Part shown: positions 22,855-46,061 of the stretch, piece after piece
Numbering within the stretch: position 1 is the stretch's first letter
Layout: every line of letters begins with the position of its first letter
Origin: a virus
Virus record (IMG/VR): IMGVR_UViG_3300045988_139196
Direction: 5' to 3' (one strand)
DNA: 64,000 nt
Position numbers and translations under genes: made by a program
The notes under the pieces: generated by a model
Database searches by the model: none
The model's input: only the letters and a program-made list of their open reading frames with translations
What the model was told of the DNA's origin: nothing

Positions 22855-24009
22855 ACGCTCAAAAATCAATCCATATTTAATAGGGTTAAGATCAGTTATA
22901 CCTATTGTATAACACACAAGGCTTCCTGCTCCAGAGCCACGTCCTGAACCTATTTTAACCCCATGAGTTTTCGAATAATTAATAAAGTCCCATACAATAA
23001 TGAAATAACCGTCAAAATTCATTTGATGAATAATGTTCATTTCATAGTCTAGTCGGTCTTTCATTATCTTCTGATCTTCTTTAGAAAGCTTGTCAAAATT
23101 TCTAGTTTTCCACCCCTCATTAATAAGGTGTAAAAGAAATTCATTATTAGACTTATATCCACTTGGTAAGGGGTATGTCGGTAACTGTGGGTCTTGAAAA
23201 GGCATATGTACTTCTTCTATCATATCAGCTAAAGCATTAGTCTGATTTAAACCTTTTGTAACATTATTTACCCCAATTTGTTTATCCATAGTTGTATGAA
23301 TTTCTTCTTCACTTTGCAGATAACAGCCCTCATAACTTTCTGACATTGTTTCAGTGTCATGTGCTATCTGAACGTGCCTACCCTGATAATATAAATCTTC
23401 CTTTGTGGCTGCGTGGCTATCTGTAGTAATTATGTATGGAGTGTTTGTTACCTCAGATAGTTTCAAAATCTTTTTATTGTAATTAGCCTGCTCCTCTGAT
23501 TTGTGAGATTGCATTTCCAAATAGAAATTAGGAAATGCCGATTTGTATTCTTCGATATACTTAACACAAATATTAAAATCACTTTCTTTAGCTAATTTTG
23601 AAGCCAAACAAGCAGAACAAATAATTAAATCTTCTGCATATGGAGTAATATCTGAAATCTGCACTCTAGGCTTAAAATAAAAATTTTCAAGATTTGACTT
23701 AGTGATAATTTTATTTAAAGCCTTTCTACCATTCTCATTTTTTGCAAGGGCAATAAGATGAAAATACTTGTTGTTTTTATCTTTTATAGCAGTATCGAAG
23801 CACTCGTACAGCTCTACGCCATATATCAACTTAATATCAGGATATTCTTTAGATAGCTGATCGAAATATATCCATGAATATTGGTTGCCATGTTCCGTAA
23901 CTGCGTATGCTTTAATACCGACTTTTCGGCATTGTTCAAGCATTTCTTTTGGTGTGCCATAGCCGTCCAACAATGAGTACATTGTATGGTCATGCAAAGA
24001 ACTGTACAT
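22855..24009 (-). CDS. dnaE: DNA polymerase III alpha-like, exon 1 (PHP domain)
   Basis: Begins MYSSLHDHTMYSLLDG (PHP) and ends ..GSGRGSGAGSLVCYTIGITDLNPIKYGLIFER. Confidence 0.85.
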
Positions 24010-34073: not shown

Positions 34074-34149
34074 TGGTTGGACTAGCTGGATTCGAACCAG
34101 CGGAATGAGAGAGTCAAAGTCTCTTGCCTTACCACTTGGCTATAGTCCA
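34074..34149 (-). tRNA. tRNA-Gln (UUG), CCA encoded
   Basis: Hand-folded cloverleaf: acceptor TGGACTA/TAGTCCA, anticodon stem AGAGA/TCTCT, loop CTTTGAC, T-arm GGTTCGAATCC. Confidence 0.85.
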
Positions 34150-34262
34150 ATATTAGCACTGCTTTCACAGTGCTTTTTGTTCACCTGCCTTTACAAATCA
34201 GTTTGCAATTTGTAATCAACTAATCGATGAACCGTTATCGTTGTCGGCAACCGTAACCGACT

Positions 34263-34338
34263 TGGTGCAACTTAGGGGACTCGAACCCCTGACCCTTTGA
34301 TTAAAAGTCAAATGCTCTACCAACTGAGCTAAAGTTGC
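34263..34338 (-). tRNA. tRNA-Lys (UUU), CCA encoded
   Basis: Acceptor GCAACTT/AAGTTGC, D-arm AGCTCAGTTGGTAGAGC, loop CTTTTAA, T-arm GGTTCGAGTCC. Confidence 0.85.
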
Positions 34339-34429
34339 AAGTGCAGGTATCACACTACATTCCCTTATGGTGGGATAAGCTCTGTACCTGCTATGCCAAT
34401 TTGCTTTGTACGGCATTGGCAAACTGTAC

Positions 34430-34514
34430 TGGTGTCACTGACGAGACTCGAACTCGCATGGATTTTTCCGAGGAATTTTAAGTTCCTTGTGTATACCTAT
34501 TCCACCACAGTGAC
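34430..34514 (-). tRNA. tRNA-Leu (UAA), long variable arm, CCA encoded
   Basis: Acceptor GTCACTG/CAGTGAC, anticodon stem AGGAA/TTCCT, loop CTTAAAA, a 13-nt variable region, T-arm GAGTTCGAGTCTC. Confidence 0.8.
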
Positions 34515-35753: not shown

Positions 35754-36179
35754 TCAAGCTAGTTTTTGGTTAGCACTAACATCGTGTGAAGTTAATGCAA
35801 GAGAAATGCAAATTGCTTGAGAGATTCTTCTCATTTCATTCGGAGTTAAGTGACCCAAATAATTAACTATCTTTGTCTTGCTAATCGTAGCAAGTTGTTC
35901 ACATAGAACGACGCTTGTTTTAGCCACTCCACTCGTTTTGTTAAGCAGGACATGAGTAGGGAAGTATGTTTTATTTTTTGAAACATTTGATGTTAGCGGT
36001 GCGACTATTAAACATGGTGAATATTTATTTCCAATGTTATTTTGCACAACTATTGCTGGACGCACCCCTGCCTGTACAGAACCTCCTACATCAGGAAAGC
36101 TTACCAAAATCAAATCTCCTCTTGTTATCTCTCTGTCACATATTTTTGTGTTATTTTCTTTAAAACAAATTTTTTCCAT
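35754..36179 (-). CDS. mazF: MazF/PemK-family endoribonuclease toxin-like protein
   Basis: GDLILVSFP..GVRPAIVVQNN..LIVAPLTS..THV..CEQLATISK pattern. The ATG at 36179 follows AGGAGG. Confidence 0.8.
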   Translation of the reverse strand: MEKICFKENNTKICDREITRGDLILVSFPDVGGSVQAGVRPAIVVQNNIGNKYSPCLIVAPLTSNVSKNKTYFPTHVLLNKTSGVAKTSVVLCEQLATISKTKIVNYLGHLTPNEMRRISQAICISLALTSHDVSANQKLA

Positions 36180-36305
36180 AAACAACGTCCTCCTTTCTTT
36201 TTATTTAACGTTTTGTTGTTGTCGTTGTTTATTTTTCTTCTTTTTCTATATTATAACCGTACAACTTTTAATATTCATTGTATTTTGATGAATATAATGT
36301 TAAAT

Positions 36306-37166
36306 CTATCTTAATATTTCCATTGAGCCTAAATCATTTCCAAACATAGAAATATTAAGCGTTGCTATCTTTTCTCTTTTCTCAAAAATATTACACAAAT
36401 TAATGATAATTGGCTCTATGTAGCTTTTCTTGTAAAACATATCTGCATTAAATTTGCTCAAGCATCTATTCTCTTGCAAACTCCACAAGCCAATAAAACA
36501 TTTCTTATGCAGCTTGTCATACATTATATAGGGTGTAGCGGCTCGATTATGGTCAACAGCCAAAGTTCCGCAATCGAGTATTTCGCATAGCTTATCTATA
36601 TTTAGCAATTCAAAATATAGATATTGCAAGTTACTGATCTGACTCTTATTAAGATTGCCTAGTGCATATGTGTCGATAAGTAATGTAATCTTATCATTCT
36701 CAACGCTTGACCTAGTTTCATCAATATAATCTTCTTTCAGTAATTCCGTAATTTCAACCCACTGCTTTTTCTCTAGCGGAAAGAGTGGCATAGAAGCCAC
36801 TAAACGTTCAGGAACGTATCGGCAGGAAATAGTTAAAGTGACATCATGTATTCCTATTATAATAGTATCTCTTGCAATGCTTATAATAGCTGATGAAAAG
36901 TCATATTCAAGCCGACCAATCGTCATGCAGTAATCAAGTAGAACTAAATCTTGTGTCCTGTCTAGCTCCAAGCATAGAAAACCATGATCTATCCCACAAA
37001 TATCTTGTAAATCCTCAAAACCACCCCTATATTCTTCTTTAATAATTGGATTGTCAGTTAGCTTCAGAGCTGTTCCGTATATTTTGTCATTATTTTTGTT
37101 GTTTGTAAGTATAAATTCGTTATAGCATTTATTGCATACTAATTTTATTAATTCTTGTAAGACCAT
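36306..37166 (-). CDS. hypothetical 286-aa protein (first gene of the mazF-containing cassette)
   Basis: ORF only. It has its own promoter with a palindromic operator. Confidence 0.55.
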   Translation of the reverse strand: MVLQELIKLVCNKCYNEFILTNNKNNDKIYGTALKLTDNPIIKEEYRGGFEDLQDICGIDHGFLCLELDRTQDLVLLDYCMTIGRLEYDFSSAIISIARDTIIIGIHDVTLTISCRYVPERLVASMPLFPLEKKQWVEITELLKEDYIDETRSSVENDKITLLIDTYALGNLNKSQISNLQYLYFELLNIDKLCEILDCGTLAVDHNRAATPYIMYDKLHKKCFIGLWSLQENRCLSKFNADMFYKKSYIEPIIINLCNIFEKREKIATLNISMFGNDLGSMEILR

Positions 37167-37201
37167 TTTTACAACTCCCTTTTAATTTTAATCTTTGTAA
37201 A

Positions 37202-37255
37202 AGAACATCTGTTCTAATATGCTTATACTATACTATAAAACAAATGTTCTGTCAA
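37202..37255 (-). promoter_or_regulatory. promoter with GAAC-N4-GTTC (Cheo/LexA-box-like) palindrome
   Basis: On the minus strand: TTGACA (37255-37250), 17 nt, TATAGT (37232-37227). The perfect palindrome AGAACATCTGTTCT (37202-37215) lies just downstream, and a half-site GAACATTTGTTT lies in the spacer. Confidence 0.6.
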
Positions 37256-37399
37256 GTGATTTATGTCCATTATTTTGTACAGTATATTTTACCACACAAT
37301 TAAGGTAAATATTAGTAAAACTAATTCCCACTGCCTTAATTTTATCACCATTCAATACTTAAATCAATGATAAATTATTCCCAAAAATAAATACACGAT

Positions 37400-37582
37400 T
37401 TAACAGCGACAATAGTTTCTTCGGAAGTTCCATACAATTCCGATATAAACTTCTTTTCGGGTTGATGGGAATGAAAAAGACTCTCCATTCTCATTTACCC
37501 ATATCTCATGCGACCCCTTACCTCTGCGTGAGTATGAAAACCCACGCTCGGCAAGCAGTCTTTTAAATTTGTTTATGTTCAT
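37400..37582 (-). CDS. hicA: HicA-like protein
   Basis: KRLLAERGFSYSRRGKGSHEIWVNENGESFSFP matches the HicA/YcfA pattern. Start MNINKF is at 37582. Confidence 0.65.
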   Translation of the reverse strand: MNINKFKRLLAERGFSYSRRGKGSHEIWVNENGESFSFPSTRKEVYIGIVWNFRRNYCRC

Positions 37583-37649
37583 TTTGTTGTTGTTCCTTTC
37601 TTTTCTAATTTTTGCAAGATTTGAAAACAAAACTTGCATTTTATTTACT

Positions 37650-38426
37650 TTAGTTTGTTGTATTACACTTTCTCAACATTCTAATAATTCCACTCTGACC
37701 CTTTGGCGTTACCATAGGAGTGAGTCCTATTCTGACTGCGCCATTCTGTATGTATGAGCTTTCTTTAAGCTGAAACCATGGCTGAGTGTCTATGTACCTT
37801 TGATAAGGCATATTCTTATGACCGTCCTTACAGCCTAACACTTTCTTTTCTCTCAAAAAATTAAATAGCCTTGTTCTGCCTATCTTTATTCCGTTCTTAG
37901 TTGCCAACTTTGCCATGTCGTTCATTGATATACAATCTTCAGAAGTTTGTATATGACTTGCAAAGTCCACAAGAGGTTTATCCTGCTCTATCTTATTATT
38001 AAGCTGTCTGATCGTTGATAGATTGAGCCTGAACAATTCTCTCGTCTGAGCATCGGCATTTGGCAGATAGGTGTTAATGAACATCTCGTCATTGGCTACA
38101 TAACCGCCTGTCTTGCGTATAGTCGGGAGAACTTCTGAAGTGACCCAACGTTTAAATGTTTTAGCCTTTGGTAGCTTACTTCCGAGAATAAGAGAATACA
38201 AGCCAGACTCATTAATGATAGTCATTGTTTGCTTTCCACCAAGGACGCCCTGAAATGGGGCGTCATTTTTATCATCATCATCAACGTGCCTTGCAATGGC
38301 ATTTCTTGCCTTTGTATACCCCAAAATCTCAGCCACATCTTTTCCGACAAACCAAGGCTCTCCGTCCTTAACTATTGTCCTCACTGTTCCAAATTCCTTG
38401 TTTGTGAATGTTTTAATTCCGTCCAT
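37650..38426 (-). CDS. BRO-N / KilAC-type phage antirepressor
   Basis: FTNKEFGTVRTIVKDGEPWFVGKDVAEILGY (Bro-N) and a C-terminal ..MNDMAKL..GRTRLFNFLREKKVL (KilAC-like). The ATG at 38426 follows AAAGGA. Confidence 0.8.
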   Translation of the reverse strand: MDGIKTFTNKEFGTVRTIVKDGEPWFVGKDVAEILGYTKARNAIARHVDDDDKNDAPFQGVLGGKQTMTIINESGLYSLILGSKLPKAKTFKRWVTSEVLPTIRKTGGYVANDEMFINTYLPNADAQTRELFRLNLSTIRQLNNKIEQDKPLVDFASHIQTSEDCISMNDMAKLATKNGIKIGRTRLFNFLREKKVLGCKDGHKNMPYQRYIDTQPWFQLKESSYIQNGAVRIGLTPMVTPKGQSGIIRMLRKCNTTN

Positions 38427-38517
38427 TTTCTTTGTCCTTTCTGTTCTTAATTTACATTGTTGTTTGAAATTTCCTGCTTGCAAGCATAAAAATACACTAT
38501 TGTCAAAGAAATAGTTC

Positions 38518-38546
38518 TTGACAGCAGTGTTTACTCATGATATAAT
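38518..38546 (+). promoter_or_regulatory. perfect consensus promoter for the antisense sRNA
   Basis: TTGACA (38518-38523), 17 nt, TATAAT (38541-38546). Confidence 0.75.
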
Positions 38547-38552
38547 ATATTT

Positions 38553-38661
38553 ACCAGAAGTAACACTTGTCAAAACACCATTACTATAAGTAATGTGCTT
38601 GTGTACTTTTGTTCACCTGACAACTCTGCTTGACTTTCCACGGACAGCAGAGTTGTTTTTT
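38553..38661 (+). ncRNA. candidate sRNA of about 110 nt, antisense to the RHH-antirepressor intercistronic region
   Basis: Runs from the consensus promoter to the terminator ACAACTCTGCT-loop-AGCAGAGTTGT plus T6 (38620-38661). Internal hairpin CATTACT-ATA-AGTAATG. No SD-preceded ORF. Confidence 0.6.
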
Positions 38662-38842
38662 ATTTGCCAACAATAGTTTTAGTTTCGTTTAGCCTTAGTA
38701 CCAATTCAAACTTGTCATCTACATACATTTTCATGAATGTTTCCAACAAATCGTTCATTTTAATGCCGTTAATAGCACATTTTGACTTGAACTGATTTTG
38801 AATTTCGCTGTCTATTGTTGTTGTGAACGGTTTTCTATCCAT
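38660..38842 (-). CDS. Arc/CopG-like ribbon-helix-helix protein
   Basis: 60 aa with a beta-alpha-alpha pattern: KPFTTTIDSEIQNQFKSKCAINGIKMNDLLETFMKMY. Confidence 0.6.
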   Translation of the reverse strand: MDRKPFTTTIDSEIQNQFKSKCAINGIKMNDLLETFMKMYVDDKFELVLRLNETKTIVGK

Positions 38843-38870
38843 TATTATTTTCTCACCTGCCTTTTATTAT

Positions 38871-38899
38871 AGTATAATTTATTTTTATATGTTTGTCAA
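38871..38899 (-). promoter_or_regulatory. promoter of the RHH-antirepressor operon
   Basis: On the minus strand: TTGACA (38899-38894), 17 nt, TATACT (38876-38871). Confidence 0.65.
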
Positions 38900-39076
38900 C
38901 CATATAAAAATAAAAATCTTTCACAAAATTCTAGCGTATTTTTTGTTGAAATACACAATTTTAGTTTCTGAGATATTACACTTAAACCCTAAATCTTGAT
39001 TTTCAGCCTAAAATATGCTAAAATTTTCTTATAAAAAGTAATTCTAATTAATCTTAGAAATTGGAGGAAATAAAAA

Positions 39077-39736
39077 ATGAGCAAAATAAAATTAATTCTT
39101 ATCGCACTCATGACAATATTAGCATTGTCCTCATGTAATAGTAAAACAACAAGTTCCATATCTGACAGTAATTTCACTACCACTACAACAATTACAACAA
39201 CCACCACTCCCACAACAACTTCTCATACTTTGACAACAACCAAACCATCAACTACCACAACCACTTCCAAATCATCAACTACTACCACAACGACTACAAC
39301 CACAACGACAACTACAACTACCACGCATGATTATAGTTCTGAAATAAGTGCTTTAGAGCAAGAAAATAATCGCCTACAGGGTGAAATCTCCACCTATCAG
39401 AACGAAATAAACAATGAGCAATCTGATATTTCCATCTATGAAATCTATAAATCGGATGCCGAAGATGATGTTGAGGAGGCTAAAATACAGCTTGAAAACG
39501 CCAATAAGAAAATGGTTAAAGTTTATGGTGATGGCGGTTGGACTACAGAAGTTGACTCAGAAGCAGTTTCAAAGGCTCAATCTCACTTAGACGATTGCCA
39601 AAGAGTTGTTGACGTGTACAATGAACTTATATCAGAAAGTCAAAGTAATATTGATTATTATAACACTTGTATATCCAATAATCAAAGTTCCATTGAAAGC
39701 AATAATAGTCTTATAAACGATTATCGTAGCAGATAA
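39077..39736 (+). CDS. lipoprotein with Thr-rich linker and coiled-coil domain
   Basis: Signal peptide with lipobox LALSSC, a poly-T/S linker, and heptad-like QNEINNEQ repeats. SD GGAGGA upstream. Confidence 0.75.
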   Translation: MSKIKLILIALMTILALSSCNSKTTSSISDSNFTTTTTITTTTTPTTTSHTLTTTKPSTTTTTSKSSTTTTTTTTTTTTTTTTHDYSSEISALEQENNRLQGEISTYQNEINNEQSDISIYEIYKSDAEDDVEEAKIQLENANKKMVKVYGDGGWTTEVDSEAVSKAQSHLDDCQRVVDVYNELISESQSNIDYYNTCISNNQSSIESNNSLINDYRSR

Positions 39737-39758
39737 TCATAAAACAGGAGGTAATACC

Positions 39759-40118
39759 ATGAAGAAAATTTGTTCCATTCTTGTGATTGCAATAGGAATA
39801 ACACTATTTGTGATAGGTTATACAACAAAAATTCCAAGCAAAAATTTAACCACATTTTCAATTTTGGAAGGTGACAAGTATAGTGCCATTGACGAATATG
39901 TTGGCGGTGACGCTTACAACTATATCATAGGAGCTTCACTTGTCAGCGGTAAAATAGCCGCTGCGAAAATTGAGAGAGTAATTTTCATATCCACTGGCTC
40001 ATTAATTTTCTCCATTGGCATAATTGGTTTTGCATTTTCATTTAAAACCAAAGAAAAGAAACCTAAAGAAAAAAAAGATGTTGGCGAGCAGGGTGACTTG
40101 TCACAAACTAACGAATAA
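39759..40118 (+). CDS. membrane protein (about 3 TM helices)
   Basis: Hydrophobic segments; SD AGGAGG upstream. Confidence 0.65.
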   Translation: MKKICSILVIAIGITLFVIGYTTKIPSKNLTTFSILEGDKYSAIDEYVGGDAYNYIIGASLVSGKIAAAKIERVIFISTGSLIFSIGIIGFAFSFKTKEKKPKEKKDVGEQGDLSQTNE

Positions 40119-40144
40119 AATTTACAAAGTTCCACAAAATAGTA

Positions 40145-40173
40145 TTGACAAAATGAGTATAGTATGCTATACT
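40145..40173 (+). promoter_or_regulatory. promoter of type III TA locus 1
   Basis: TTGACA, 17 nt, TATACT. Confidence 0.75.
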
Positions 40174-40202
40174 ATAAATGATGAAAGGTAGTTATTTACC
40201 AT

Positions 40203-40292
40203 TTCCGCTTACCAATATGCGGGATATAAATGGTTGGGTTGAAAGTTTTCCGCTTACCAATATGCGGGATATAAATGGTTGGGTTGAAAGTT
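40203..40292 (+). ncRNA. type III antitoxin-like RNA: two perfect 45-nt direct repeats
   Basis: TTCCGCTTACCAATATGCGGGATATAAATGGTTGGGTTGAAAGTT occurs at 40203-40247 and 40248-40292, plus a 2-nt partial third copy. Confidence 0.8.
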
Positions 40293-40294
40293 TT

Positions 40295-40327
40295 AAGCCT
40301 TGCCGTTGTGGCAGGGCTTTTAATTTT
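40295..40327 (+). terminator. intrinsic terminator between RNA repeats and toxin gene
   Basis: AAGCCTTGCC-GTTGT-GGCAGGGCTT followed by TTAATTTT. Confidence 0.75.
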
Positions 40328-40342
40328 GGAAGGTGAAAAATA

Positions 40343-40849
40343 ATGGTTGAACATGGCTTTTATATAATTGATGATTTATTCTTCAAGAAATTTAACGACC
40401 CTTTTCTAAAAGGAAATAAATCCGAAAATCGTCCTCATTACTATTGTTTTAAAGATACTAATGAAGGACTATATTGGATAATTCCTTTAAGCTCACGCAT
40501 TAACAAGTATCAAAAGATAATCAACCAACGCTTAAAAAATCATAAGCCATGTGATATATTACATATTTGTACTCTGAGCAATGGAAAACAAAGTGTATTT
40601 TTAATACAAGATATGTTTCCCATTACTCAAAAATATATCAAGCGTAAATATACCATTAATTCCAATCACCTCATTCTTAAAAATCAAAATGAAATACGAA
40701 TTATTAAACAAAAAGCTGAACGTATTCTTAATCAGATCAATCGAGGTCAACATTGTATTACAACTTGTGCCGATGTATTATCTATCAAAAAAGAACTGCT
40801 GTTAGAACTACAGATAGAAACTCAAACAGCGGACACTCTGACTTGTTGA
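40343..40849 (+). CDS. ToxN/AbiQ-family type III toxin (endoribonuclease-like), copy 1
   Basis: GFYIIDD..F, ENRPHYYCF, GLYWIIPLSSR and FLIQDMFPIT match the ToxN/AbiQ pattern. SD GGAAGGTGA upstream. Confidence 0.8.
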   Translation: MVEHGFYIIDDLFFKKFNDPFLKGNKSENRPHYYCFKDTNEGLYWIIPLSSRINKYQKIINQRLKNHKPCDILHICTLSNGKQSVFLIQDMFPITQKYIKRKYTINSNHLILKNQNEIRIIKQKAERILNQINRGQHCITTCADVLSIKKELLLELQIETQTADTLTC

Positions 40850-40901
40850 TTTGTGTTTTTTGAATTTGCATAAAATTCCATTCAAAACTTTTTGAAAAGC
40901 A

Positions 40902-40930
40902 TTGACAAATTGACAATAGTATGCTATACT
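40902..40930 (+). promoter_or_regulatory. promoter of type III TA locus 2
   Basis: TTGACA, 17 nt, TATACT. The 27 nt at 40918-40944 are identical to 40161-40187. Confidence 0.75.
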
Positions 40931-40962
40931 ATAAATGATGAAAGATTATCTCTATCATCTCT

Positions 40963-41087
40963 AATTTACGCTTCGCAATGTGCGACACAGAAACATTGTA
41001 GATACAATTACGTTTCACAATGTACGGCAAAGTAACATTGTAGTATTCAATTTACGCTTCGCAATGTGCGACACAGAAACATTGTAG
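40963..41087 (+). ncRNA. type III antitoxin-like RNA: about 2.9 copies of a 43-nt repeat
   Basis: Units start at 40963, 41006 and 41049. Units 1 and 3 are identical over 39 nt (AATTTACGCTTCGCAATGTGCGACACAGAAACATTGTAG). Unit 2 is diverged. Confidence 0.8.
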
Positions 41088-41089
41088 TG

Positions 41090-41132
41090 ATGCTGTCATT
41101 TTGGTTAATCTGAAGTGACAGCATATTTTTTT
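41090..41132 (+). terminator. intrinsic terminator between repeats and toxin gene
   Basis: ATGCTGTCA-17 nt-TGACAGCAT followed by ATTTTTTT. Confidence 0.7.
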
Positions 41133-41151
41133 GTATTAGGAGTGTCAAAAT

Positions 41152-41640
41152 ATGACGGAACATGGTATGTACTTTATTACACCCGACTATTATCAACTTA
41201 TTCGAGATGTAGGAGGAACTTGGAATGATTGCAAGGAAAGACCCATTGTTTGTTTGATTAAGTCCACCGAAAATTCCAAATTGTATTGGGCAATACCTGT
41301 AGGCAAAGTAAATCATCGTGACACTAAAGCTATTAATCGTATTTATTCCTATATAAACAAAGATCCAAGAAATATTGCTTCTTGCTTTTATCACATTGGC
41401 AAGACAACCACCAAATCTATTTTCTTTATTAGTGATGCTTTTCCTGTAACAGATGTCTACATAGACAGAATTTATGAGGGCTATGATAAACAACAATATG
41501 TCATTGAAAACAATAATCTTCTGTCTGCTCTGAAATATAAGCTCCAAAGAATTTTAAGTTATGAAAATGCTAATCCAAATTTCTTCCGTCAGCATATTAC
41601 CGATGTTAAAAGAAAACTATTAGACGAAATTAACAATTAA
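41152..41640 (+). CDS. ToxN/AbiQ-family type III toxin, copy 2 (diverged paralogue)
   Basis: GMYFITPDYY, KERPIVCLI, KLYWAIPVGK and FFISDAFPVT. SD AGGAG upstream. Confidence 0.75.
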   Translation: MTEHGMYFITPDYYQLIRDVGGTWNDCKERPIVCLIKSTENSKLYWAIPVGKVNHRDTKAINRIYSYINKDPRNIASCFYHIGKTTTKSIFFISDAFPVTDVYIDRIYEGYDKQQYVIENNNLLSALKYKLQRILSYENANPNFFRQHITDVKRKLLDEINN

Positions 41641-41657
41641 ACAAAAGAGGTATTCTT

Positions 41658-41990
41658 ATGTCCGAAATTAAATCAATAACAGACCAAGAAATATTATCAT
41701 ACTGGAACTCAATTAAATCCGTAAGAGGAGTTGCTATTAAACTCGGTATCTCGTGGCAAAGAGTTATGAAAAGTCTTTCTAGTTTAGGTATTATAGTTAA
41801 TAATACCCACGCCAAAATCACTCAATACCACAAAGAAGGGAAGTCGGCTAATGAGATTGCCAACTTAATGAATATGAACGTTAATGTTGTGAAAGCCTAT
41901 CTCCCACGCAACAGACCTCAATACAAGGTTAATCAATCTAAAAATGCTCTAGCAGTACAGAGGAGTAAAGAACGCCACAAGAAACGCTAA
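41658..41990 (+). CDS. DNA-binding protein with two HTH-like repeats
   Basis: VRGVAIKLGISWQRVMKSL and SANEIANLMNMNVNVVKAYL. Confidence 0.5.
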   Translation: MSEIKSITDQEILSYWNSIKSVRGVAIKLGISWQRVMKSLSSLGIIVNNTHAKITQYHKEGKSANEIANLMNMNVNVVKAYLPRNRPQYKVNQSKNALAVQRSKERHKKR

Positions 41991-42012
41991 AGGGACTTTT
42001 AAAAGTCCCTTT
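41989..42012. terminator. bidirectional hairpin terminator
   Basis: Palindrome AAAGGGACTTTT/AAAAGTCCCTTT between convergent genes, with a T-run on the plus side. Confidence 0.65.
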
Positions 42013-42873
42013 TTATTTTACATACTTATCCACAACTTCCTTGCCCACTTCCATTTTTAACATTTGCTCTTTTACGAGTCTGCTATCGCAGCCACTATAA
42101 TGTTGCTCAGTTATCCTCAAATCAGAATGTCCTAAGCTCTGACAGGCAATACGCAAATCTCTAATAACATCTTCACTGCCTTTTTGAATACAACTAATAT
42201 AAACGGAATGTGTCTGCCTAAAGCTGTGAGTGCTATATTTACCTTCTATGCCATGTTTGGCGGTTATATTCTTTAGAAATGTTGTAACGGAATTAAGTTC
42301 CATAGGAGCTATTCTGAGTAGTCTGCCGTTCCAATCATACTTCTCATTAGTATATATAATTTCTTCTTCTCCGTCCTCATTCAAGAAAATGTCCTCAATA
42401 TACTTCCTCTTACGTTCTCCACTCTGAAAAATATAATCTTCTGGGTCAAGTCCATAATACTTGATTATAAAACTCAGCATTTTCTTCACAGTATCACAAA
42501 GCCATGCCGTTCTCCATTTGTCCGTCTTGTCCTCTTGTAATGTCAAGTAATCTACAATTTTGCCGTTGTTATCGGTTAAATCCTTGACCCTCAAGGTCAT
42601 TATATCTCCGTAACGATAGCCTAAGTTACAAGCAAAAATTATAATATTTGCCTTGAAATATTTTTTGTTCTGAAACAAATCTTCCAAGAGAACATTCAGA
42701 TCATCGGGTCTGAACCAACTCGCAGACTTCTGCTTGCTTTCTTTATGCTTCGTAATAGCATTTCTGTGACCTTTTTTTCGTTTTGGCTGTTTTGTTATCT
42801 GTATTCCTGTCAGAAGTCTATCCGATAAATCGAAAATTTTGCAAGTTTGAGCTGTACTAATATTCATTTTCAT
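42013..42873 (-). CDS. tyrosine recombinase / phage integrase family
   Basis: GYRYGDI (Arg), HSFRQTH (HxxR) and LGHSDLRITEQHY (His..Tyr). Confidence 0.8.
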   Translation of the reverse strand: MKMNISTAQTCKIFDLSDRLLTGIQITKQPKRKKGHRNAITKHKESKQKSASWFRPDDLNVLLEDLFQNKKYFKANIIIFACNLGYRYGDIMTLRVKDLTDNNGKIVDYLTLQEDKTDKWRTAWLCDTVKKMLSFIIKYYGLDPEDYIFQSGERKRKYIEDIFLNEDGEEEIIYTNEKYDWNGRLLRIAPMELNSVTTFLKNITAKHGIEGKYSTHSFRQTHSVYISCIQKGSEDVIRDLRIACQSLGHSDLRITEQHYSGCDSRLVKEQMLKMEVGKEVVDKYVK

Positions 42874-42882
42874 TCACTCCCA

Positions 42883-43143
42883 TCATATACACAATGTAAA
42901 TATTATTCCTGCTATCAACATAACGCTTGTAAAGAGCAAGCCAAAACCACCATAGACAACGTTCTTCACTATCATTCTAACTTTTCTCTGGCGTTCTTCT
43001 CTGAGCCTTTGACGGCGTTTTGCTTTTAAATATGCCTTCCGCATATTATAATCTTGTTCTTCCTCTATCTTCCGTAGCTCTTCTTTACGATCGTTGTCTA
43101 GCATTTTCACAAAAAGTAATGTATTCGTATTTTCATTTTTCAT
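42883..43143 (-). CDS. tail-anchored membrane protein with basic coiled-coil
   Basis: Start MKNENTN follows AGGAGG. C-terminal TM segment GGFGLLFTSVMLIAGIIFTLCI. Confidence 0.55.
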   Translation of the reverse strand: MKNENTNTLLFVKMLDNDRKEELRKIEEEQDYNMRKAYLKAKRRQRLREERQRKVRMIVKNVVYGGFGLLFTSVMLIAGIIFTLCI

Positions 43144-43176
43144 ATTTATTCCTCCTATATTTATTCCTGCATAAAG

Positions 43177-43215
43177 AAATACTCCTATCAATCAATGTGA
43201 TTAATAGGAGTATTT
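43177..43215 (-). terminator. hairpin terminator (12-bp stem)
   Basis: AAATACTCCTAT-15 nt-ATAGGAGTATTT. The U-tract on the minus strand is weak. Confidence 0.45.
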
Positions 43216-43251
43216 ATATTTATTATATTAGTTTTATACACACAATCGCTT

Positions 43252-43806
43252 TCATATTGCAAGTAAACTGTCTATTTCTGCAAGTCTTTTAAGAAGCTTT
43301 TCACGCTCCACTTTTAAGCTTTCCACGTCTATATCAGATACGAGTTTAACGCCCTCGTGGTCTTTGATTTTGCTATAAATCGTTTCAGGAACACCTTTTA
43401 CACGAACGATTGTGTTCTTATCAGCCGCTATTCTAGGACTTTTGGCAGAGCCACCCGAAGTGGCAAAGCCACCGTTTATAAGCATTGCATTGTCGGAGAA
43501 AATAACCTCTCTGTCACGATAAAGTCTTTTCAGAACAACGATTGAGCCAACTCTGATTTCTCCGTCCTCGTAACCCTCAGTATAAGTGTCGAGGTCAAGA
43601 TCTACTGTGACAGTGCTAACCGCACCAAGTTCTCCGCATTCACCATAGCATTCGATGAGTAACGCCTTGACAGCTTCCTTGTTCTCCTCTGGGAAGACCC
43701 AGCAAGGGGCGTTCCACTTGCCCTGTATCTGCTTTGCCCCTGCGACAAAGCTCTTGTTATACGGACTGTTTACCTTGATTGTCTCGTTTTCAACTGTAAC
43801 TTTCAT
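43252..43806 (-). CDS. hypothetical protein, elevated GC
   Basis: ORF only. A hand-counted 60-nt sample (43441-43500) is about 50% GC. Confidence 0.55.
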   Translation of the reverse strand: MKVTVENETIKVNSPYNKSFVAGAKQIQGKWNAPCWVFPEENKEAVKALLIECYGECGELGAVSTVTVDLDLDTYTEGYEDGEIRVGSIVVLKRLYRDREVIFSDNAMLINGGFATSGGSAKSPRIAADKNTIVRVKGVPETIYSKIKDHEGVKLVSDIDVESLKVEREKLLKRLAEIDSLLAI

Positions 43807-43829
43807 GTTTTATCTCCTATTATATTATA

Positions 43830-44105
43830 TTACTTCTTATTGTCAGGGATCTTAGCCCACATTTTCTCTCGATAAGCCAACTCTTGGCTATAGGTTTCAT
43901 GCCATTGCTTATCCAGTTCTTTTCGTTCCTCAAGCGTAAGACTTCTACCCTCATCAATAGCCTTATAAAAGGCGTCATCATAAATCTTTTGAGCTTTGTC
44001 AAAAGCTCCAATTGGATTGTATTTTCTGTTAATTTCTCTCCGCTTATTTTCACTATGGTTCACACATAGATAAATAATAATCAAAATGATTGTTGCTAGT
44101 AACAA
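43830..44105 (-). CDS. membrane-anchored small protein
   Basis: N-terminal TM segment MLLATIILIIIYLCV. Confidence 0.5.
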   Translation of the reverse strand: MLLATIILIIIYLCVNHSENKRREINRKYNPIGAFDKAQKIYDDAFYKAIDEGRSLTLEERKELDKQWHETYSQELAYREKMWAKIPDNKK

Positions 44106-44185
44106 TGTTTATTCCTCCTCATTCAGCTCATGCTCGTTGTAAATTTCTTCATTATTTCTAATTAATTATACCACAAAATTCCTCA

Positions 44186-44398
44186 TTAGTCAACTAGAAT
44201 TTTGTCGAAAACGTCCATAAAATCGGACAGTATGGCTATTTTTATTAACCACGTTTTACACTCGTCATCAGTATAGCCGCTACACTTCATTTGTGCGATA
44301 TGTAATCTAATACGCTCATTCCGTTCCAATGATCTGATACGTTCCATAAGACGCTTATCAGGGTGCTGTATTACCATGTTATTCTGCTTTTCTATCAT
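44186..44398 (-). CDS. hypothetical protein
   Basis: Start MIEKQNN follows GGAGGA. The listed TTG start lies inside the SD. Confidence 0.5.
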   Translation of the reverse strand: MIEKQNNMVIQHPDKRLMERIRSLERNERIRLHIAQMKCSGYTDDECKTWLIKIAILSDFMDVFDKILVD

Positions 44399-44416
44399 AT
44401 AAAATTCCTCCAAAAA

Positions 44417-44503
44417 TTAATTATGGAAATGTTTAAAAGCTTCTTCTTTATCAGTACATATTGTTCCATTAGTAGTTATGAATGTGTGAATTTCTTTTAT
44501 CAT
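44417..44503 (-). CDS. 28-aa mini-paralogue of the two following genes
   Basis: Unlisted ORF MIKEIHTFITTNGTICTDKEEAFKHFHN after AGAGGAG. It matches the N-termini of the 44539 and 45076 gene products. Confidence 0.4.
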   Translation of the reverse strand: MIKEIHTFITTNGTICTDKEEAFKHFHN

Positions 44504-44538
44504 AAGTAATAATTCTCCTCTGTATAAACTTCTTTTAA

Positions 44539-45048
44539 TTAAATAAACCTATTCAAATTTTTCATCATATCCTCTAAGTTAGTTATTTTCTTCTTATAAT
44601 GGTCAAGTAAAATTATGTTATATTCTGTTGGTGGGCAAGTACTGTATTTAGACATAGTTTCATGCCAACTTGTTATAATGTCTTTCATATAATTCAATTG
44701 ATGGTTAGTACCGATTTCATACCAGCCCACACCCTTAAAGCTATTTGAATTAAAATAATATGCATCAATTTCATCATCTGTAAGATAAGCAAGCATTGCA
44801 ACAAAGTTAAAAGCATCTTTATTTTCGATATAAACATAATCTGCCTCATACCAAATATCTTTTGCAAGAGCTTTCAAGTTTTTGTCTTTAGGTATTTCCC
44901 AATAAGGTTCATCATCGTACTTATCATATCCAACAAGCTTAAACTTCATTACATCTTTATTTGTTTTAAGTTCATGTGTAAGAGCTTCTTCAGCACTCTT
45001 AAATTCCTTACCATCTGTTGTCTTAAAATATTCGATATGCTCAATCAT
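44539..45048 (-). CDS. hypothetical protein, paralogue family member
   Basis: MIEHIEYFKTTDGKEFKSAEEALTHE.., AFNFVAML and FKGVGWY are shared with the next gene. Confidence 0.6.
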   Translation of the reverse strand: MIEHIEYFKTTDGKEFKSAEEALTHELKTNKDVMKFKLVGYDKYDDEPYWEIPKDKNLKALAKDIWYEADYVYIENKDAFNFVAMLAYLTDDEIDAYYFNSNSFKGVGWYEIGTNHQLNYMKDIITSWHETMSKYSTCPPTEYNIILLDHYKKKITNLEDMMKNLNRFI

Positions 45049-45075
45049 TTATATTCTCCTTCAAGTTAAAAAAAA

Positions 45076-45624
45076 TTAAAAATGCTTATTGATATAACTA
45101 AATTCCGTAATTAAATCCGATAATACTTCTTTATCCTCTTCTAAAATATGGAGATTGATGTCAGTTTTATGCTTATTGTAGTTAGCTTCATCTACTTTTA
45201 CAGCAACTTCTAGTGTGTGTAAAACATCAATCATAAATTCAAATTTTTCTTCATAAAACATAGAGTATGCTCTATACCAACCAGTACCTTTAAATTTTGT
45301 ATAGCTTGCACACTTTTTATTATAATTAACCATATCTTCTGTGCTAGGTAAATAATAGACTAGATTACAAGCAAAATTAAAAGCTTCTTCATTTCCAAAA
45401 TAAATATATGTGGTTGTATTAGGATAAAATATACTTAGTGCAAGATGAAATAAATCTGTAAAGTCTATATCCACTTTATTATATCGGTCAGTCATAACAT
45501 TATAAGTTACAATTACAATGTCTTTAACTTTTTCATTTATTTCAAGTTCGTGATTAAAAGCCTCTTCTTTACTAGTAAAAGTTTTATTATCACTTGTTGT
45601 GAAACATTCTGTATGGGTAAACAT
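45076..45624 (-). CDS. hypothetical protein, paralogue family member
   Basis: MFTHTECFTTSDNKTFTSKEEAFNHE.., AFNFACNL and FKGTGWY. Confidence 0.6.
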   Translation of the reverse strand: MFTHTECFTTSDNKTFTSKEEAFNHELEINEKVKDIVIVTYNVMTDRYNKVDIDFTDLFHLALSIFYPNTTTYIYFGNEEAFNFACNLVYYLPSTEDMVNYNKKCASYTKFKGTGWYRAYSMFYEEKFEFMIDVLHTLEVAVKVDEANYNKHKTDINLHILEEDKEVLSDLITEFSYINKHF

Positions 45625-45646
45625 ATACTTATCCTTTCTATATCAG

Positions 45647-46061
45647 TTATAGCTTTATTACATTATCTTCTATAAATTTATTTAAGTTTCTATCAGCTTC
45701 ATAGAGTTTATCTAATTCCTTACGACAATCTTTAAGTAATGTTTCTTTTAAACTCTCTAAACAAGCATAATCACTTTTTTCAATATCTTCAATTATCTTT
45801 TTGAGATGTTTAATAATTTCAGAAAATAGGTATAGTCTGAATCATAACAAATGTGTTCTGCAAGGGTAATAAGGTCATTGAATTCCTTATCAACTTCCTG
45901 ACAACGCTTTTTGTAAATAGGGATATACCTTATAATTTTAAATAGTTTTGCCCAATCGTTTGTTTTAAGTTCCCATTCAAGAGCTTTCTTTATATCCGTA
46001 AATTTTCATTATCTGTTGTAATAATATAATCTCTGTTATCTTCATTAAAAATTGTAATCAT
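45647..46061 (-). pseudogene. gene broken by two frameshifts (or homopolymer sequencing errors)
   Basis: Three consecutive reading pieces lie in three frames: MITIFNEDNRDYIITTDNENLRI*, then ..KKALEWELKTNDW..LNISKR*, then ..IIEDIEKSDYACLESL..IEDNVIKL*. Only the first piece has a start and SD. Confidence 0.5.

What the first reader, a model, noticed from the sequence alone, without database searches (positions are those of the whole stretch)
40145..40849. Type III toxin-antitoxin locus 1: two 45-nt RNA repeats, a terminator, and a ToxN/AbiQ-like toxin
All four parts of the canonical type III TA layout can be read directly. There is a consensus promoter (TTGACA, 17 nt, TATACT; 40145-40173). Two perfect head-to-tail 45-nt repeats follow (40203-40292). 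Next comes a GC-rich hairpin with a T-run (40295-40327). Finally there is an SD-preceded 168-aa ORF with the motif order of ToxN/AbiQ endoribonucleases (FY.I.., RP...., LYWIIPLSS, DMFPI). Known systems of this kind (ToxIN of Pectobacterium, AbiQ/antiQ of Lactococcus, the CptIN and TenpIN families) use exactly this promoter-repeats-terminator-toxin design. The toxin processes the repeats into an inhibitory RNA. The 45-nt unit and its sequence are not ones I recognise.
Basis: partly seen in the sequence, partly recalled or inferred. Interest (0 to 1): 0.85.

Follow-up and report, generated by a model that had tools for sequence, protein, structure and literature searches.

The report
CptIN toxin-antitoxin locus on prophage
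This is a standard RNA-antitoxin/RNase-toxin pair of the already described CptIN family, sitting beside a second, more divergent pair in a widespread prophage of a human-gut Clostridia bacterium; the module is ordinary and only its phage location and tandem partner are mildly new.

Summary
In detail: consensus promoter (40145-40173), 45-nt x 2.1 perfect tandem repeat (40202-40294), terminator hairpin (40295-40319 plus U-rich tail), SD and 168-aa ORF (40343-40849). The type III TA reading is right, but the family is CptIN, not ToxIN/AbiQ, and the repeat is not novel. The toxin scores 168.9 bits on NCBIfam CptIN (cutoff 90) and E=6e-51 to crystallised CptN of Eubacterium rectale (PDB 4RMO, 52% identity). 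The 45-nt unit is 38/45 identical to CptI_Er. Six of the 7 differences are three changes that keep pairs in the two pseudoknot stems, and the A-minor-twist loop and both cleavage tails are identical. Across 54 distinct CptI units the pseudoknot is 98.7% paired with covariation. The toxin is under purifying selection (pN/pS 0.11) with invariant catalytic residues. The context is new: the locus lies in an accessory-gene island of a prevalent integrated prophage (Hominimerdicola aceti lineage), in tandem with a divergent CptN-like locus. Relatives carry either locus, both, or a nonsense toxin. Side result: the second locus's repeats are Rfam 'Fusobacteriales-1', filed as cis-regulatory, which accompanies that toxin family in 18/20 divergent loci and forms a CptI-like pseudoknot. 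Verdict: new member of a known kind.

The parts
40103..40144 (+). Left edge of the mosaic TA1 module
   Evidence: Homology to relatives that lack the upstream lipoprotein and membrane genes (L001, L002, L010, L014) begins at window 40103.
40145..40173 (+). Sigma-70-type promoter TTGACA-17-TATACT with TG extended -10; predicted TSS about 40180
   Evidence: 11/12 match; conserved in 17 relatives with full upstream sequence. A 28-bp core (40160-40187) is duplicated exactly at 40917-40944 in front of locus 2, with 0 expected by chance.
40198..40242 (+). CptI antitoxin unit 1 (5' variant: ACCA instead of AAGU at positions 1-4, so no canonical upstream cleavage context)
   Evidence: 35/45 identical to CptI_Er; identical to unit 2 from position 5 on.
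40243..40287 (+). CptI antitoxin unit 2, a full 45-nt unit bounded by two GUUGA^AAGU cleavage contexts (predicted cuts after 40242 and after 40287)
   Evidence: 38/45 identical to CptI_Er; the differences keep pairs 7:26, 10:23 and 17:38; L2 loop 27-35 and both tails identical. Pseudoknot covariation on 54 units.
40288..40294 (+). Partial third unit (AAGUUUU) that supplies the 3' cleavage context
   Evidence: Sequence; the same AAGT context follows the last unit in the bacterial CptIN loci.
40295..40327 (+). Intrinsic terminator (11-bp stem, U-rich tail) between antitoxin and toxin
   Evidence: dG -19.3, z -4.65; an equivalent hairpin is present in the bacterial CptIN loci.
40328..40335 (+). 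Shine-Dalgarno GGAAGGTG
   Evidence: Sequence; 7 nt before the ATG.
40343..40849 (+). cptN toxin gene, 168 aa endoribonuclease (S50-S51-R52 triad, N80, S84, Y103)
   Evidence: NF047359 168.9 bits; 4RMO_A E=6e-51; 52% identity; pN/pS 0.11 and catalytic residues invariant in 12 alleles.
40850..41644 (+). Second type III TA cassette in tandem: promoter 40902-40930, 44-nt x 2.9 repeats 40963-41088 (Rfam Fusobacteriales-1), terminator 41090-41124, 162-aa CptN-like toxin 41152-41640
   Evidence: Clean indel relative to one-locus phages. The association and the pseudoknot were tested.
41658..41990 (+). 110-aa HTH protein gene, 17-32 nt after the last toxin gene in every relative, probably co-transcribed; ends at the bidirectional terminator 41989-42012

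Best explanation
[quoted passage not shown] A strong constitutive promoter transcribes two 45-nt CptI repeats. The terminator stops most transcripts, so antitoxin RNA is made in excess over toxin mRNA. Read-through produces CptN, an endoribonuclease. CptN cuts the repeat precursor after A45 (GUUGA^AAGU; predicted after 40242 and 40287) and stays bound to the processed H-type pseudoknot in an inactive 2:2 complex. When transcription of the locus stops, the labile RNA decays and free CptN cleaves cellular or phage RNA, arresting growth. The locus sits in a reverse-oriented accessory (moron-type) island next to the integrase of a prevalent integrated prophage of an Oscillospiraceae gut bacterium. 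Its most likely benefit there is protecting the lysogen against other phages by abortive infection (about 0.5), with stabilisation of the prophage as a by-product or alternative (about 0.3). Shown here: homology, architecture, RNA fold conservation, purifying selection, prophage context. Inferred: cleavage sites, complex stoichiometry, toxicity, trigger and biological role.
For: Toxin: NF047359 CptIN 168.9 bits vs cutoff 90; PDB 4RMO CptN E=6e-51 over residues 1-150; 52% identity; 921 relatives, some named 'CptIN family toxin'. The catalytic residues reported for CptN_Er (S51 S52 R53, S85, Y104; PMC4627078) are conserved as S50 S51 R52, S84, Y103, and D81 is N80. RNA: 45 nt x 2.1, inside the family range of 40-48 nt and 1.9-3.4 copies (PMC3401426). 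It is 38/45 identical to CptI_Er, with differences at 7:26, 10:23 and 17:38 that keep pairing, an identical L2 loop including A29/U30 (mutations of these abolished antitoxicity), and identical tails. 70 of 74 diverse CptN loci have a 45-47-nt array upstream. On 54 distinct units S1+S2 are 98.7% paired, 4 pairs change on both sides, 0/500 shuffles reach the score, and slid registers give 22-44%. Promoter and terminator. Selection: ORF intact in all 21 relatives examined, pN/pS 0.11. Context: phage replication and head genes; region embedded in contigs up to 3.2 Mb and in an H. aceti isolate contig; +-strand island with its own promoters and terminators beside the integrase.
Against: There are no experimental data for this locus: transcription, processing, toxicity and neutralisation are all inferred. 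The first unit lacks the canonical 5' cleavage context, so only one unit is bounded by two sites. L1 is U13 where at least 90% of family units, and CptI_Er, have G13, which stacks on G35 in the crystal structure. Asp81 of CptN_Er is Asn here. For the proposed role: the two CptIN systems tested so far gave no phage resistance in E. coli, whereas CptIN_Er did stabilise plasmids (PMC3401426, PMC4627078, PMC5086642). One relative (L110) has a nonsense toxin and others (L108) lack the locus, so it is dispensable for the phage. PADLOC has no matching model.
Confidence: 0.88

Rival explanations
1. Same molecular module, but its selected function is addiction. It would stabilise the prophage, or an episomal form of it, by killing or arresting cells that lose it, rather than defending against other phages.
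For: CptIN_Er raised plasmid retention to 100% in E. coli, and no Abi was found for the two CptIN systems tested. The phage has its own replication machinery and only a short (286-aa) tyrosine recombinase. The only GenBank phage record with a CptN-like gene has a plasmid-style name, pCD1602_4. The same 6-kb region also carries PemK/MazF-like and HicA-like toxin genes.
Against: The element lies inside contigs of 215 kb to 3.2 Mb, so it is integrated, and segregational loss is less of an issue there. The cassette is freely gained and lost among otherwise near-identical prophages, as is typical of defence hot spots. The published Abi tests used only coliphages in E. coli.
Confidence: 0.3
2. The phage keeps the locus mainly for its RNA. 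The phage-made CptI would act as a decoy that neutralises a host-encoded CptN defence (as with pseudo-ToxI in phage PhiTE), and the toxin gene would be incidental.
For: CptI sequences are unusually conserved across hosts (mean column identity 91%; the window unit is 2-5 nt from several bacterial units) while the toxins are only 51-65% identical. L110 keeps perfect repeats with a nonsense toxin.
Against: The toxin ORF is intact in all 21 relatives examined, with pN/pS 0.11 and invariant catalytic residues; L110 is the only nonsense allele seen. CptI antitoxins were shown to be highly selective even between very similar RNAs (PMC4627078). No host CptIN locus was identified here.
Confidence: 0.05
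3. The locus is an inactive relic: the repeats and ORF persist only through recent common descent.
For: Relatives are very close (95-100% protein identity). One nonsense allele (L110), one damaged terminator with a mutated unit (L003) and single-unit variants (L005, L009) exist.
Against: pS is about 0.08-0.13 against pN of about 0.01, which shows enough divergence to detect purifying selection. The repeats are essentially invariant while synonymous sites vary. The promoter, terminator, SD and catalytic residues are all intact.
Confidence: 0.03
4. It is a member of the ToxIN/AbiQ family, as in the first reader's title, or of an unrecognised new type III family with a novel antitoxin.
For: Weak Pfam ToxN_toxin similarity (E=9.6e-4); the general architecture is shared by all type III families.
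Against: ToxN_toxin at 19.8 bits is below the gathering score of 25; TenpIN scores 17.2 bits vs cutoff 90; CptIN scores 168.9 bits. The RNA is 84% identical to CptI_Er, and the 45-nt length and pseudoknot are those of CptI, unlike the 36-nt ToxI.
Confidence: 0.02

Closest known systems
CptIN of Eubacterium rectale (PDB 4RMO; Rao et al. 2015, PMC4627078)
   Same: Same family by profile and sequence (E=6e-51, 52% identity). Same layout: promoter, two 45-nt repeats, terminator, toxin. RNA 38/45 identical with the same S1/S2 pairs, identical L2 A-minor-twist loop and identical cleavage tails. Ser-Ser-Arg triad, Ser and Tyr of the active site conserved.
   Different: L1 is U13 rather than G13; Asp81 is Asn80; the toxin has a 17-aa longer, variable C-terminus. 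The two units are identical from position 5 on, whereas most bacterial loci have two units that differ by paired changes. The first unit lacks the upstream cleavage context. The locus is carried by a prophage, in tandem with a second locus and followed by an HTH gene, whereas cptIN_Er is described as chromosomal.
cptIN family as defined by Blower et al. 2012 (PMC3401426)
   Same: Repeat length (40-48 nt), copy number (1.9-3.4) and toxin length (45-213 aa) all fit; the host is in Clostridia like most members.
   Different: All 33 original members were recorded as chromosomal, with none on phage or plasmid. This one is on a phage that also occurs as viral contigs of 62-108 kb.
ToxIN of Pectobacterium atrosepticum and AbiQ/antiQ of Lactococcus lactis
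   Same: Same operating principle: the toxin processes its own repeat RNA into pseudoknots that inhibit it, and a terminator sets the ratio. The toxin fold and catalytic logic are related.
   Different: 36-nt (ToxI) and about 35-nt (antiQ) repeats in more copies; heterohexameric triangle rather than a 2:2 tetramer; under 15% toxin identity reported; the Pfam ToxN_toxin model is not met here. Those systems are plasmid-borne with proven Abi activity.
toxIN on Clostridium botulinum prophage (phage D-1873) and tenpIN loci in viral genomes (PMC12283969)
   Same: Type III TA systems carried by phages or prophages.
   Different: Different families (toxIN, tenpIN). The 2025 survey states that no other type III systems had been reported in phages. 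Canonical CptN is rare in IMG/VR (27 loci, 14 from this phage family) and nearly absent from GenBank phages.
Rfam RF02920 Fusobacteriales-1 RNA (relevant to the tandem partner, locus 2)
   Same: The locus 2 repeat array matches at 88.7 bits (gathering score 52.1).
   Different: Rfam files it as a cis-regulatory motif made of hairpins. Here it behaves as the antitoxin array of a CptN-like toxin family and has an additional covarying pseudoknot stem.

Membership tests
CptIN (type III TA) | Toxin homologous to CptN above the curated family threshold | tested here: met
   NF047359 equivalog 168.9 bits vs cutoff 90, covering profile 2-150/150; 4RMO_A E=6e-51.
CptIN (type III TA) | Tandem direct repeats of 40-48 nt, about 2-3 copies, immediately upstream of the toxin on the same strand | tested here: met
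   45 nt x 2.1, 100% identity, 40202-40294; family ranges from PMC3401426.
CptIN (type III TA) | Rho-independent terminator between repeats and toxin gene | tested here: met
   40295-40319 plus U-rich tail; dG -19.3, z -4.65. Termination itself was not measured.
CptIN (type III TA) | Repeat RNA folds as the CptI H-type pseudoknot (S1, 1-nt L1, S2, 9-nt A-rich L2 with A29/U30) | tested here: met
   All 10 S1/S2 pairs can form in the window unit. Three pairs differ from CptI_Er but stay paired; L2 is identical. Family covariation: 98.7% paired, 0/500 shuffles. The tertiary A-minor twist cannot be tested in silico.
CptIN (type III TA) | Conserved RNase active site (Ser-Ser-Arg triad; Asp81, Ser85, Tyr104 in CptN_Er) | tested here: met
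   S50 S51 R52, S84, Y103 conserved; D81 is N80; all invariant in 12 phage alleles.
CptIN (type III TA) | Toxin cleaves the precursor after A45 and forms an inhibited 2:2 complex with processed CptI | not testable with these tools
   The GUUGA^AAGU contexts are present at 40238-40246 and 40283-40291; processing is inferred from PMC4627078.
CptIN (type III TA) | Toxin is growth-inhibitory and is neutralised by the cognate repeats | not testable with these tools
   Needs a kill/rescue assay. Indirect support: purifying selection on the toxin (pN/pS 0.11).
ToxIN / AbiQ | Toxin matches the ToxN/AbiQ family model above threshold | tested here: not met
   PF13958 ToxN_toxin 19.8 bits, below the gathering score of 25; no PADLOC model hit.
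ToxIN / AbiQ | Antitoxin repeats of 31-62 nt (mean 38; 36 nt in ToxI_Pa) forming the ToxI-type triplex pseudoknot | tested here: not met
   45 nt lies inside the broad toxIN length range, but the unit sequence and fold are those of CptI, not ToxI.
TenpIN | Toxin matches the TenpN family model | tested here: not met
   NF047358 17.2 bits vs cutoff 90.
Prophage-encoded defence / accessory (moron) island | Located in an integrated temperate phage, with its own promoter and terminator, oriented against the flanking phage genes, and variable among close relatives | tested here: met
   Phage genes; integrated in contigs up to 3.2 Mb; +-strand island 39077-41990 among - strand genes; cassette presence/absence and mosaic breakpoints at 40103 and 40849/41644. 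Defence activity was not tested.

The most novel reading that the evidence does not exclude
The slot next to the integrase of this very common gut prophage is an exchangeable array of mutually orthogonal type III TA cassettes: canonical CptIN, plus a CptN-like subfamily with no functional annotation whose antitoxin is the orphan Rfam motif Fusobacteriales-1. The cassettes share a duplicated promoter/leader block that both drives them and mediates their gain and loss by recombination. On this reading, prophage-mediated exclusion of competing phages is the natural role of CptIN, which has been unknown since 2012. The co-transcribed HTH protein and the inverted repeat over the -10 could add transcriptional control, which has not been described for type III systems.
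Probability: 0.3. Interest if true: 0.55.

Novelty: new member of a known kind. Interest (0 to 1): 0.3.

Why it matters
The module itself adds nothing mechanistic. It is a close relative of a crystallised system, and NCBI's current family model would name it automatically. Its value lies in the context. (1) CptIN has no established biological role, and the two tested systems gave no phage resistance in E. coli. A canonical, selectively maintained CptIN in a prevalent prophage whose apparent host species has a sequenced isolate (Hominimerdicola aceti) offers a natural setting to test Abi against addiction. (2) Natural variants already exist: either locus alone, both, a nonsense toxin, and one or two repeats. 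These are ready-made genetic controls. (3) The tandem partner links an orphan Rfam 'cis-regulatory' motif to a large toxin family that no source names functionally, and it adds a pseudoknot stem that the Rfam model lacks. That is a useful correction to annotation.

Tried and rejected
PADLOC gave no hit for either toxin. Rfam has no family matching the locus 1 repeats, only noise below threshold. Megablast of 36000-46000 against GenBank phages and PLSDB plasmids found nothing. The Blower 2012 supplementary table with all repeat sequences is not held as text, so I could not check whether this exact locus was catalogued; I recovered the CptI_Er sequence from a primer in PMC4627078 instead. My first register for the comparison with CptI_Er was off by one and gave a spurious 16-17/45 identity; this was corrected. 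Nested MFE folding of the 45-nt unit recovers only S1 and is not better than shuffles (z -0.22), as expected for a pseudoknot, so it says nothing either way. I searched for further copies of the promoter block or its inverted repeat elsewhere in the phage, as a possible operator, and found only the two TA promoters; the regulator idea stays untested. TRF does not detect the diverged array in L102, whereas Rfam does. I first assumed L001 was the source contig of the window and then rejected this: identity is 99.4% and L001 lacks 38550-40103. The 52-aa ORFs overlapping the repeats on both strands were dismissed: there is no SD, the + strand ATG lies upstream of the predicted TSS, and variation between units is pairwise-compensatory, not codon-like.
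Full report
OBSERVATION. The region reads as the first-stage reader described it.
- Promoter: a sigma-70-type site, TTGACA-17-TATACT with a TG extended -10, at 40145-40173. It matches 11/12 and is one of the two best sites in 3.5 kb.
- Repeat: Tandem Repeats Finder reports a 45-nt unit, 2.1 copies, 100% identity, at 40202-40294, score 186. Only one other array in the 64-kb window has a period above 30, and it lies directly downstream.
- Terminator: an 11-bp, G+C-rich hairpin at 40295-40319 followed by UUAAUUUU meets the terminator pattern. It folds at -19.3 kcal/mol (z = -4.65).
- Toxin gene: the SD GGAAGGTG precedes the ATG at 40343 by 7 nt, and the ORF runs to 40849 (168 aa).

WHAT THE TOXIN IS. 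The protein scores 168.9 bits on the NCBIfam equivalog model NF047359, 'type III toxin-antitoxin system CptIN family toxin' (cutoff 90). It scores 17.2 bits on TenpIN, 19.8 bits on Pfam ToxN_toxin, below the gathering score of 25, and nothing in PADLOC. Its only PDB relative is CptN of Eubacterium rectale (4RMO), with E = 6e-51 over residues 1-150 and 52% identity. The residues that Rao et al. (PMC4627078) assign to the active site are Ser51-Ser52-Arg53, Ser85 and Tyr104. They are conserved here as S50-S51-R52, S84 and Y103, and Asp81 is Asn80. The big protein database holds 921 relatives, mostly 52-63% identical and from Lachnospiraceae, Oscillospiraceae and Ruminococcus. Several are already named CptIN family toxin. 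The toxin is therefore a CptN, not a ToxN or AbiQ.

WHAT THE RNA IS. The family range is 40-48 nt and 1.9-3.4 copies (PMC3401426), and the crystallised CptI_Er is a 45-nt H-type pseudoknot derived from two genetic repeats. I recovered CptI_Er from the cloning primer in PMC4627078. In its register the window unit 40243-40287 is 38/45 identical. The seven differences are informative:
- A7-U26 becomes U7.G26, A10-U23 becomes G10-C23 and G17-C38 becomes A17-U38. All three changes keep pairs in stems S1 and S2.
- The seventh difference is the single L1 nucleotide (G13 to U).
- The 9-nt L2 loop (AUAUAAAUG) is identical. It forms the A-minor twist, and the A29U and delta-U30 mutants lost antitoxicity.
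- Both single-stranded tails, which carry the cleavage site after A45, are identical.
To go beyond one comparison I pulled 80 CptN loci from the genome collection. 70 of 74 with enough upstream sequence have a tandem array of period 45 (67 loci), 46 (2) or 47 (1). On the 54 distinct units the published pseudoknot is 98.7% paired and 4 of 10 pairs change on both sides. No shuffle out of 500 reaches the observed covariation, and every slid register drops to 22-44% paired. The RNA is more conserved (84-96%) than the protein (51-65%). Nested folding recovers only S1 and is uninformative, as expected for a pseudoknot.

HOW IT MOST LIKELY WORKS. By homology with CptIN_Er (inference), the promoter drives the repeats and the terminator keeps antitoxin in excess over toxin mRNA. 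CptN cuts after A45, which is predicted after 40242 and after 40287, and remains bound to the processed pseudoknot in an inactive heterotetramer. Loss of transcription would free the toxin. One detail differs from most bacterial loci. The first unit (40198-40242) begins ACCA rather than AAGU, so only the second unit is bounded by two canonical sites. A weaker look-alike context (GAUGA^AAGG) lies in the leader at 40181-40189. Relatives with only one unit exist (L005, L009), and a single unit is sufficient for antitoxicity in CptIN_Er.

IS IT FUNCTIONAL? The ORF is intact in all 21 relatives examined. These comprise 12 distinct alleles, with pooled pN/pS = 0.11 and all six active-site positions invariant. 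The repeats are almost invariant across the same phages. Among the ten further relatives fetched later, one prophage (L110) has Q83* with perfect repeats. L003 has a damaged second unit and a damaged terminator. These are the expected sporadic decay products, not the rule.

CONTEXT. The window is a tailed-phage genome. It encodes a DNA polymerase (in two ORFs), a DnaB-like helicase, a RecJ-like exonuclease, an exonuclease V/Dda-like helicase, a clamp, HNH endonucleases, methyltransferases, an anaerobic RNR, a head maturation protease, three anti-repressors, a short tyrosine recombinase and three tRNAs. Nearly all genes are on the - strand. The TA loci sit in a +-strand island (39077-41990) that ends at a bidirectional terminator next to the integrase gene. 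Close relatives are viral contigs of 62-108 kb and metagenome contigs. The same region is embedded in contigs of 215 kb to 3.2 Mb and in a 448-kb contig of the isolate Hominimerdicola aceti, family Oscillospiraceae. It is therefore an integrated prophage, and a common one: the exact toxin-2 sequence is listed in 2,483 index blocks. A PemK/MazF-like gene and a HicA-like gene lie within 5 kb.

Phage carriage of canonical CptN is unusual in the record.
- All 33 loci of Blower et al. were chromosomal.
- A 2025 survey says that no type III system other than one toxIN had been reported in phages before its own tenpIN hits.
- GenBank phages give one distant hit, and PLSDB gives 22 distant plasmid hits.
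- IMG/VR gives 27 loci, of which 14 are from this phage family.
- PHROGs holds the family as phrog_33519, 'unknown function'.

THE TANDEM PARTNER AND THE SLOT. Directly after the toxin-1 stop codon comes a second complete cassette (about 40850-41644). It has a promoter whose 28-bp core is identical to that of locus 1, 44-nt x 2.9 repeats, a terminator and a 162-aa toxin. That toxin is 30% identical to toxin 1 and scores only 57.7 bits on the CptIN model. Among relatives the slot occurs in four states:
- Both loci.
- Locus 1 alone, with a clean indel between the toxin-1 stop codon and the RBS of the HTH gene.
- Locus 2 alone (L108), where promoter 1 is fused to the locus 2 repeats. This is the product expected of recombination between the two promoter blocks.
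- Locus 1 with a nonsense toxin.
Homology to relatives that lack the upstream lipoprotein and membrane genes starts at 40103, so each TA unit behaves as a mosaic module.

SIDE RESULT ON LOCUS 2. Its repeat array matches Rfam RF02920 'Fusobacteriales-1' at 88.7 bits (gathering score 52.1). Rfam files this family as cis-regulatory. I found no paper in the library that names it, and the main text of the defining paper does not discuss it. The motif lies upstream of toxin-2-type genes in the H. aceti copy and in Clostridioides phage pCD1602_4. It also does so in 18 of 20 divergent (37-63% identical) family members on viral contigs, always on the toxin strand and just before the start codon. The toxin family has 665 relatives with no functional name, and its profile finds CptN 4RMO at E = 5.9e-9. 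Each unit can form the CptI topology. A 3-bp stem S1, absent from the Rfam model, covaries in all three units: 8 of its 9 pairs change on both sides and 97-100% of cells are paired. For the whole structure 0/500 shuffles reach the score. The motif is therefore very probably a type III antitoxin.

BIOLOGICAL ROLE (inferred). The locus has its own strong promoter and sits in a reverse-oriented island beside the integrase. It is gained and lost as a cassette among near-identical prophages, and it has other toxin genes as neighbours. These features fit a lysogen-expressed accessory module. I favour defence of the lysogen by abortive infection (about 0.5). Prophage addiction is the main alternative (about 0.3), because plasmid stabilisation is the only phenotype so far shown for a CptIN. 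A decoy role for the RNA and an inactive relic are unlikely given the selection on the toxin and the reported selectivity of CptI.

VERDICT. This is a real, very probably functional, canonical CptIN type III TA locus and a new member of a known kind. The family label needs correcting from ToxN/AbiQ-like to CptN, and the implied novelty of the repeat is not supported. The moderate interest comes from the prophage address, the polymorphic tandem cassette array and the Rfam reassignment of the neighbour.

Noticed in passing
window 40850-41644 (repeats 40963-41088; toxin 41152-41640); also L021, L102, L144-L168: The second type III TA cassette's repeat array matches Rfam RF02920 'Fusobacteriales-1' (filed as Cis-reg). 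The motif precedes toxin-2-family genes in 18/20 divergent viral loci. A 3-bp pseudoknot stem missing from the Rfam model covaries (8 of 9 pairs change on both sides), giving a CptI-like H-type fold. The toxin family (665 relatives) has no functional name in any source.
   Followed up: yes
window 41152-41640 (toxin 2), alignment A5: The toxin-2 family lacks the Ser-Ser of the CptN catalytic triad: an invariant Gly51 and Asn/Lys align there, followed by a 3-residue insertion. His55-Arg56 are invariant and Arg56 aligns with CptN_Er Arg53. It scores below the NCBIfam CptIN cutoff (57.7 vs 90), so it looks like a distinct subfamily with a remodelled active site.
   Followed up: partly
window 40103-41644 compared with L001-L021 and L103-L112: The TA slot is polymorphic among near-identical prophages: both loci, TA1 only, TA2 only (L108, a promoter-to-promoter recombination product), TA1 toxin Q83* with perfect repeats (L110), one instead of two CptI units (L005, L009), a damaged terminator plus mutated unit (L003), and U13 to G in both units (L002).
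   Followed up: yes
window 40160-40187 and 40917-40944: The two TA promoters share an identical 28-bp core that includes the inverted repeat TAGTAT-GCT-ATACTA over the -10 element. It occurs nowhere else in the window. It may be an operator or simply a duplicated promoter. In bacterial CptIN loci a different inverted repeat flanks the -10 and seems to covary (e.g. CTTTGTAC...GTACAAAG against CCTTGTAATT...AATTACAAAGG).
   Followed up: partly
window 41658-41990: A 110-aa protein with weak HTH-type hits follows the last toxin gene by 17-32 nt, with its own RBS, in every relative whichever cassettes are present. It ends at a bidirectional terminator (41989-42012). It is probably co-transcribed with toxin read-through transcripts; its function is unknown.
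   Followed up: no
window 39077-39736 and 39759-40118: A 219-aa predicted lipoprotein (LSSC lipobox-like signal, long Thr-rich linker, coiled-coil C-terminus) and a 119-aa membrane protein open the +-strand island. Both are absent from L001, L002, L010 and L014, where other sequence replaces 38550-40103. They are candidates for superinfection-exclusion or surface-modification genes.
   Followed up: partly
window 35754-36185 and 37400-37639 (- strand): A PemK/MazF-like toxin gene (Pfam 95.9 bits) and a HicA-like toxin gene (28 bits, just above the gathering score of 27) lie within 5 kb of the CptIN loci, so this prophage region carries four RNase-type TA toxins. Their antitoxin partners were not identified.
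   Followed up: partly
window 20034-22109 and 22849-24009 (- strand): The phage DNA polymerase (phrog_405) is split into two ORFs covering profile positions 44-433 and 447-1066, separated by about 740 bp (22110-22848). This could be an intron, a homing-endonuclease insertion or a genuinely split gene.
   Followed up: no
window 34074-34514 (- strand): A cluster of three phage-borne tRNA genes (Gln-UUG, Lys-UUU, Leu-UAA).
   Followed up: no
L101 (Fusobacterium polymorphum plasmid pKKCOM1330A, NZ_CP084160.1): Another tandem pair of type III loci. A 47-nt x 2.9 array precedes a 289-aa 'hypothetical protein' with an N-terminal CptN-like domain. It is followed by a 37-nt x 3.4 array and an annotated ToxN/AbiQ toxin. 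Tandem stacking of different type III families may be recurrent.
   Followed up: partly
L023-L100 (bacterial CptIN loci): In most bacterial loci the two CptI units of one array differ from each other by paired, pair-preserving changes (ACCAC..GUGGU with GACCG..GGUCGG against ACCGC..GCGGU with GACCA..GGUUGG). In this phage the two units are identical from position 5 on. Whether the two unit types have distinct roles is unknown.
   Followed up: no
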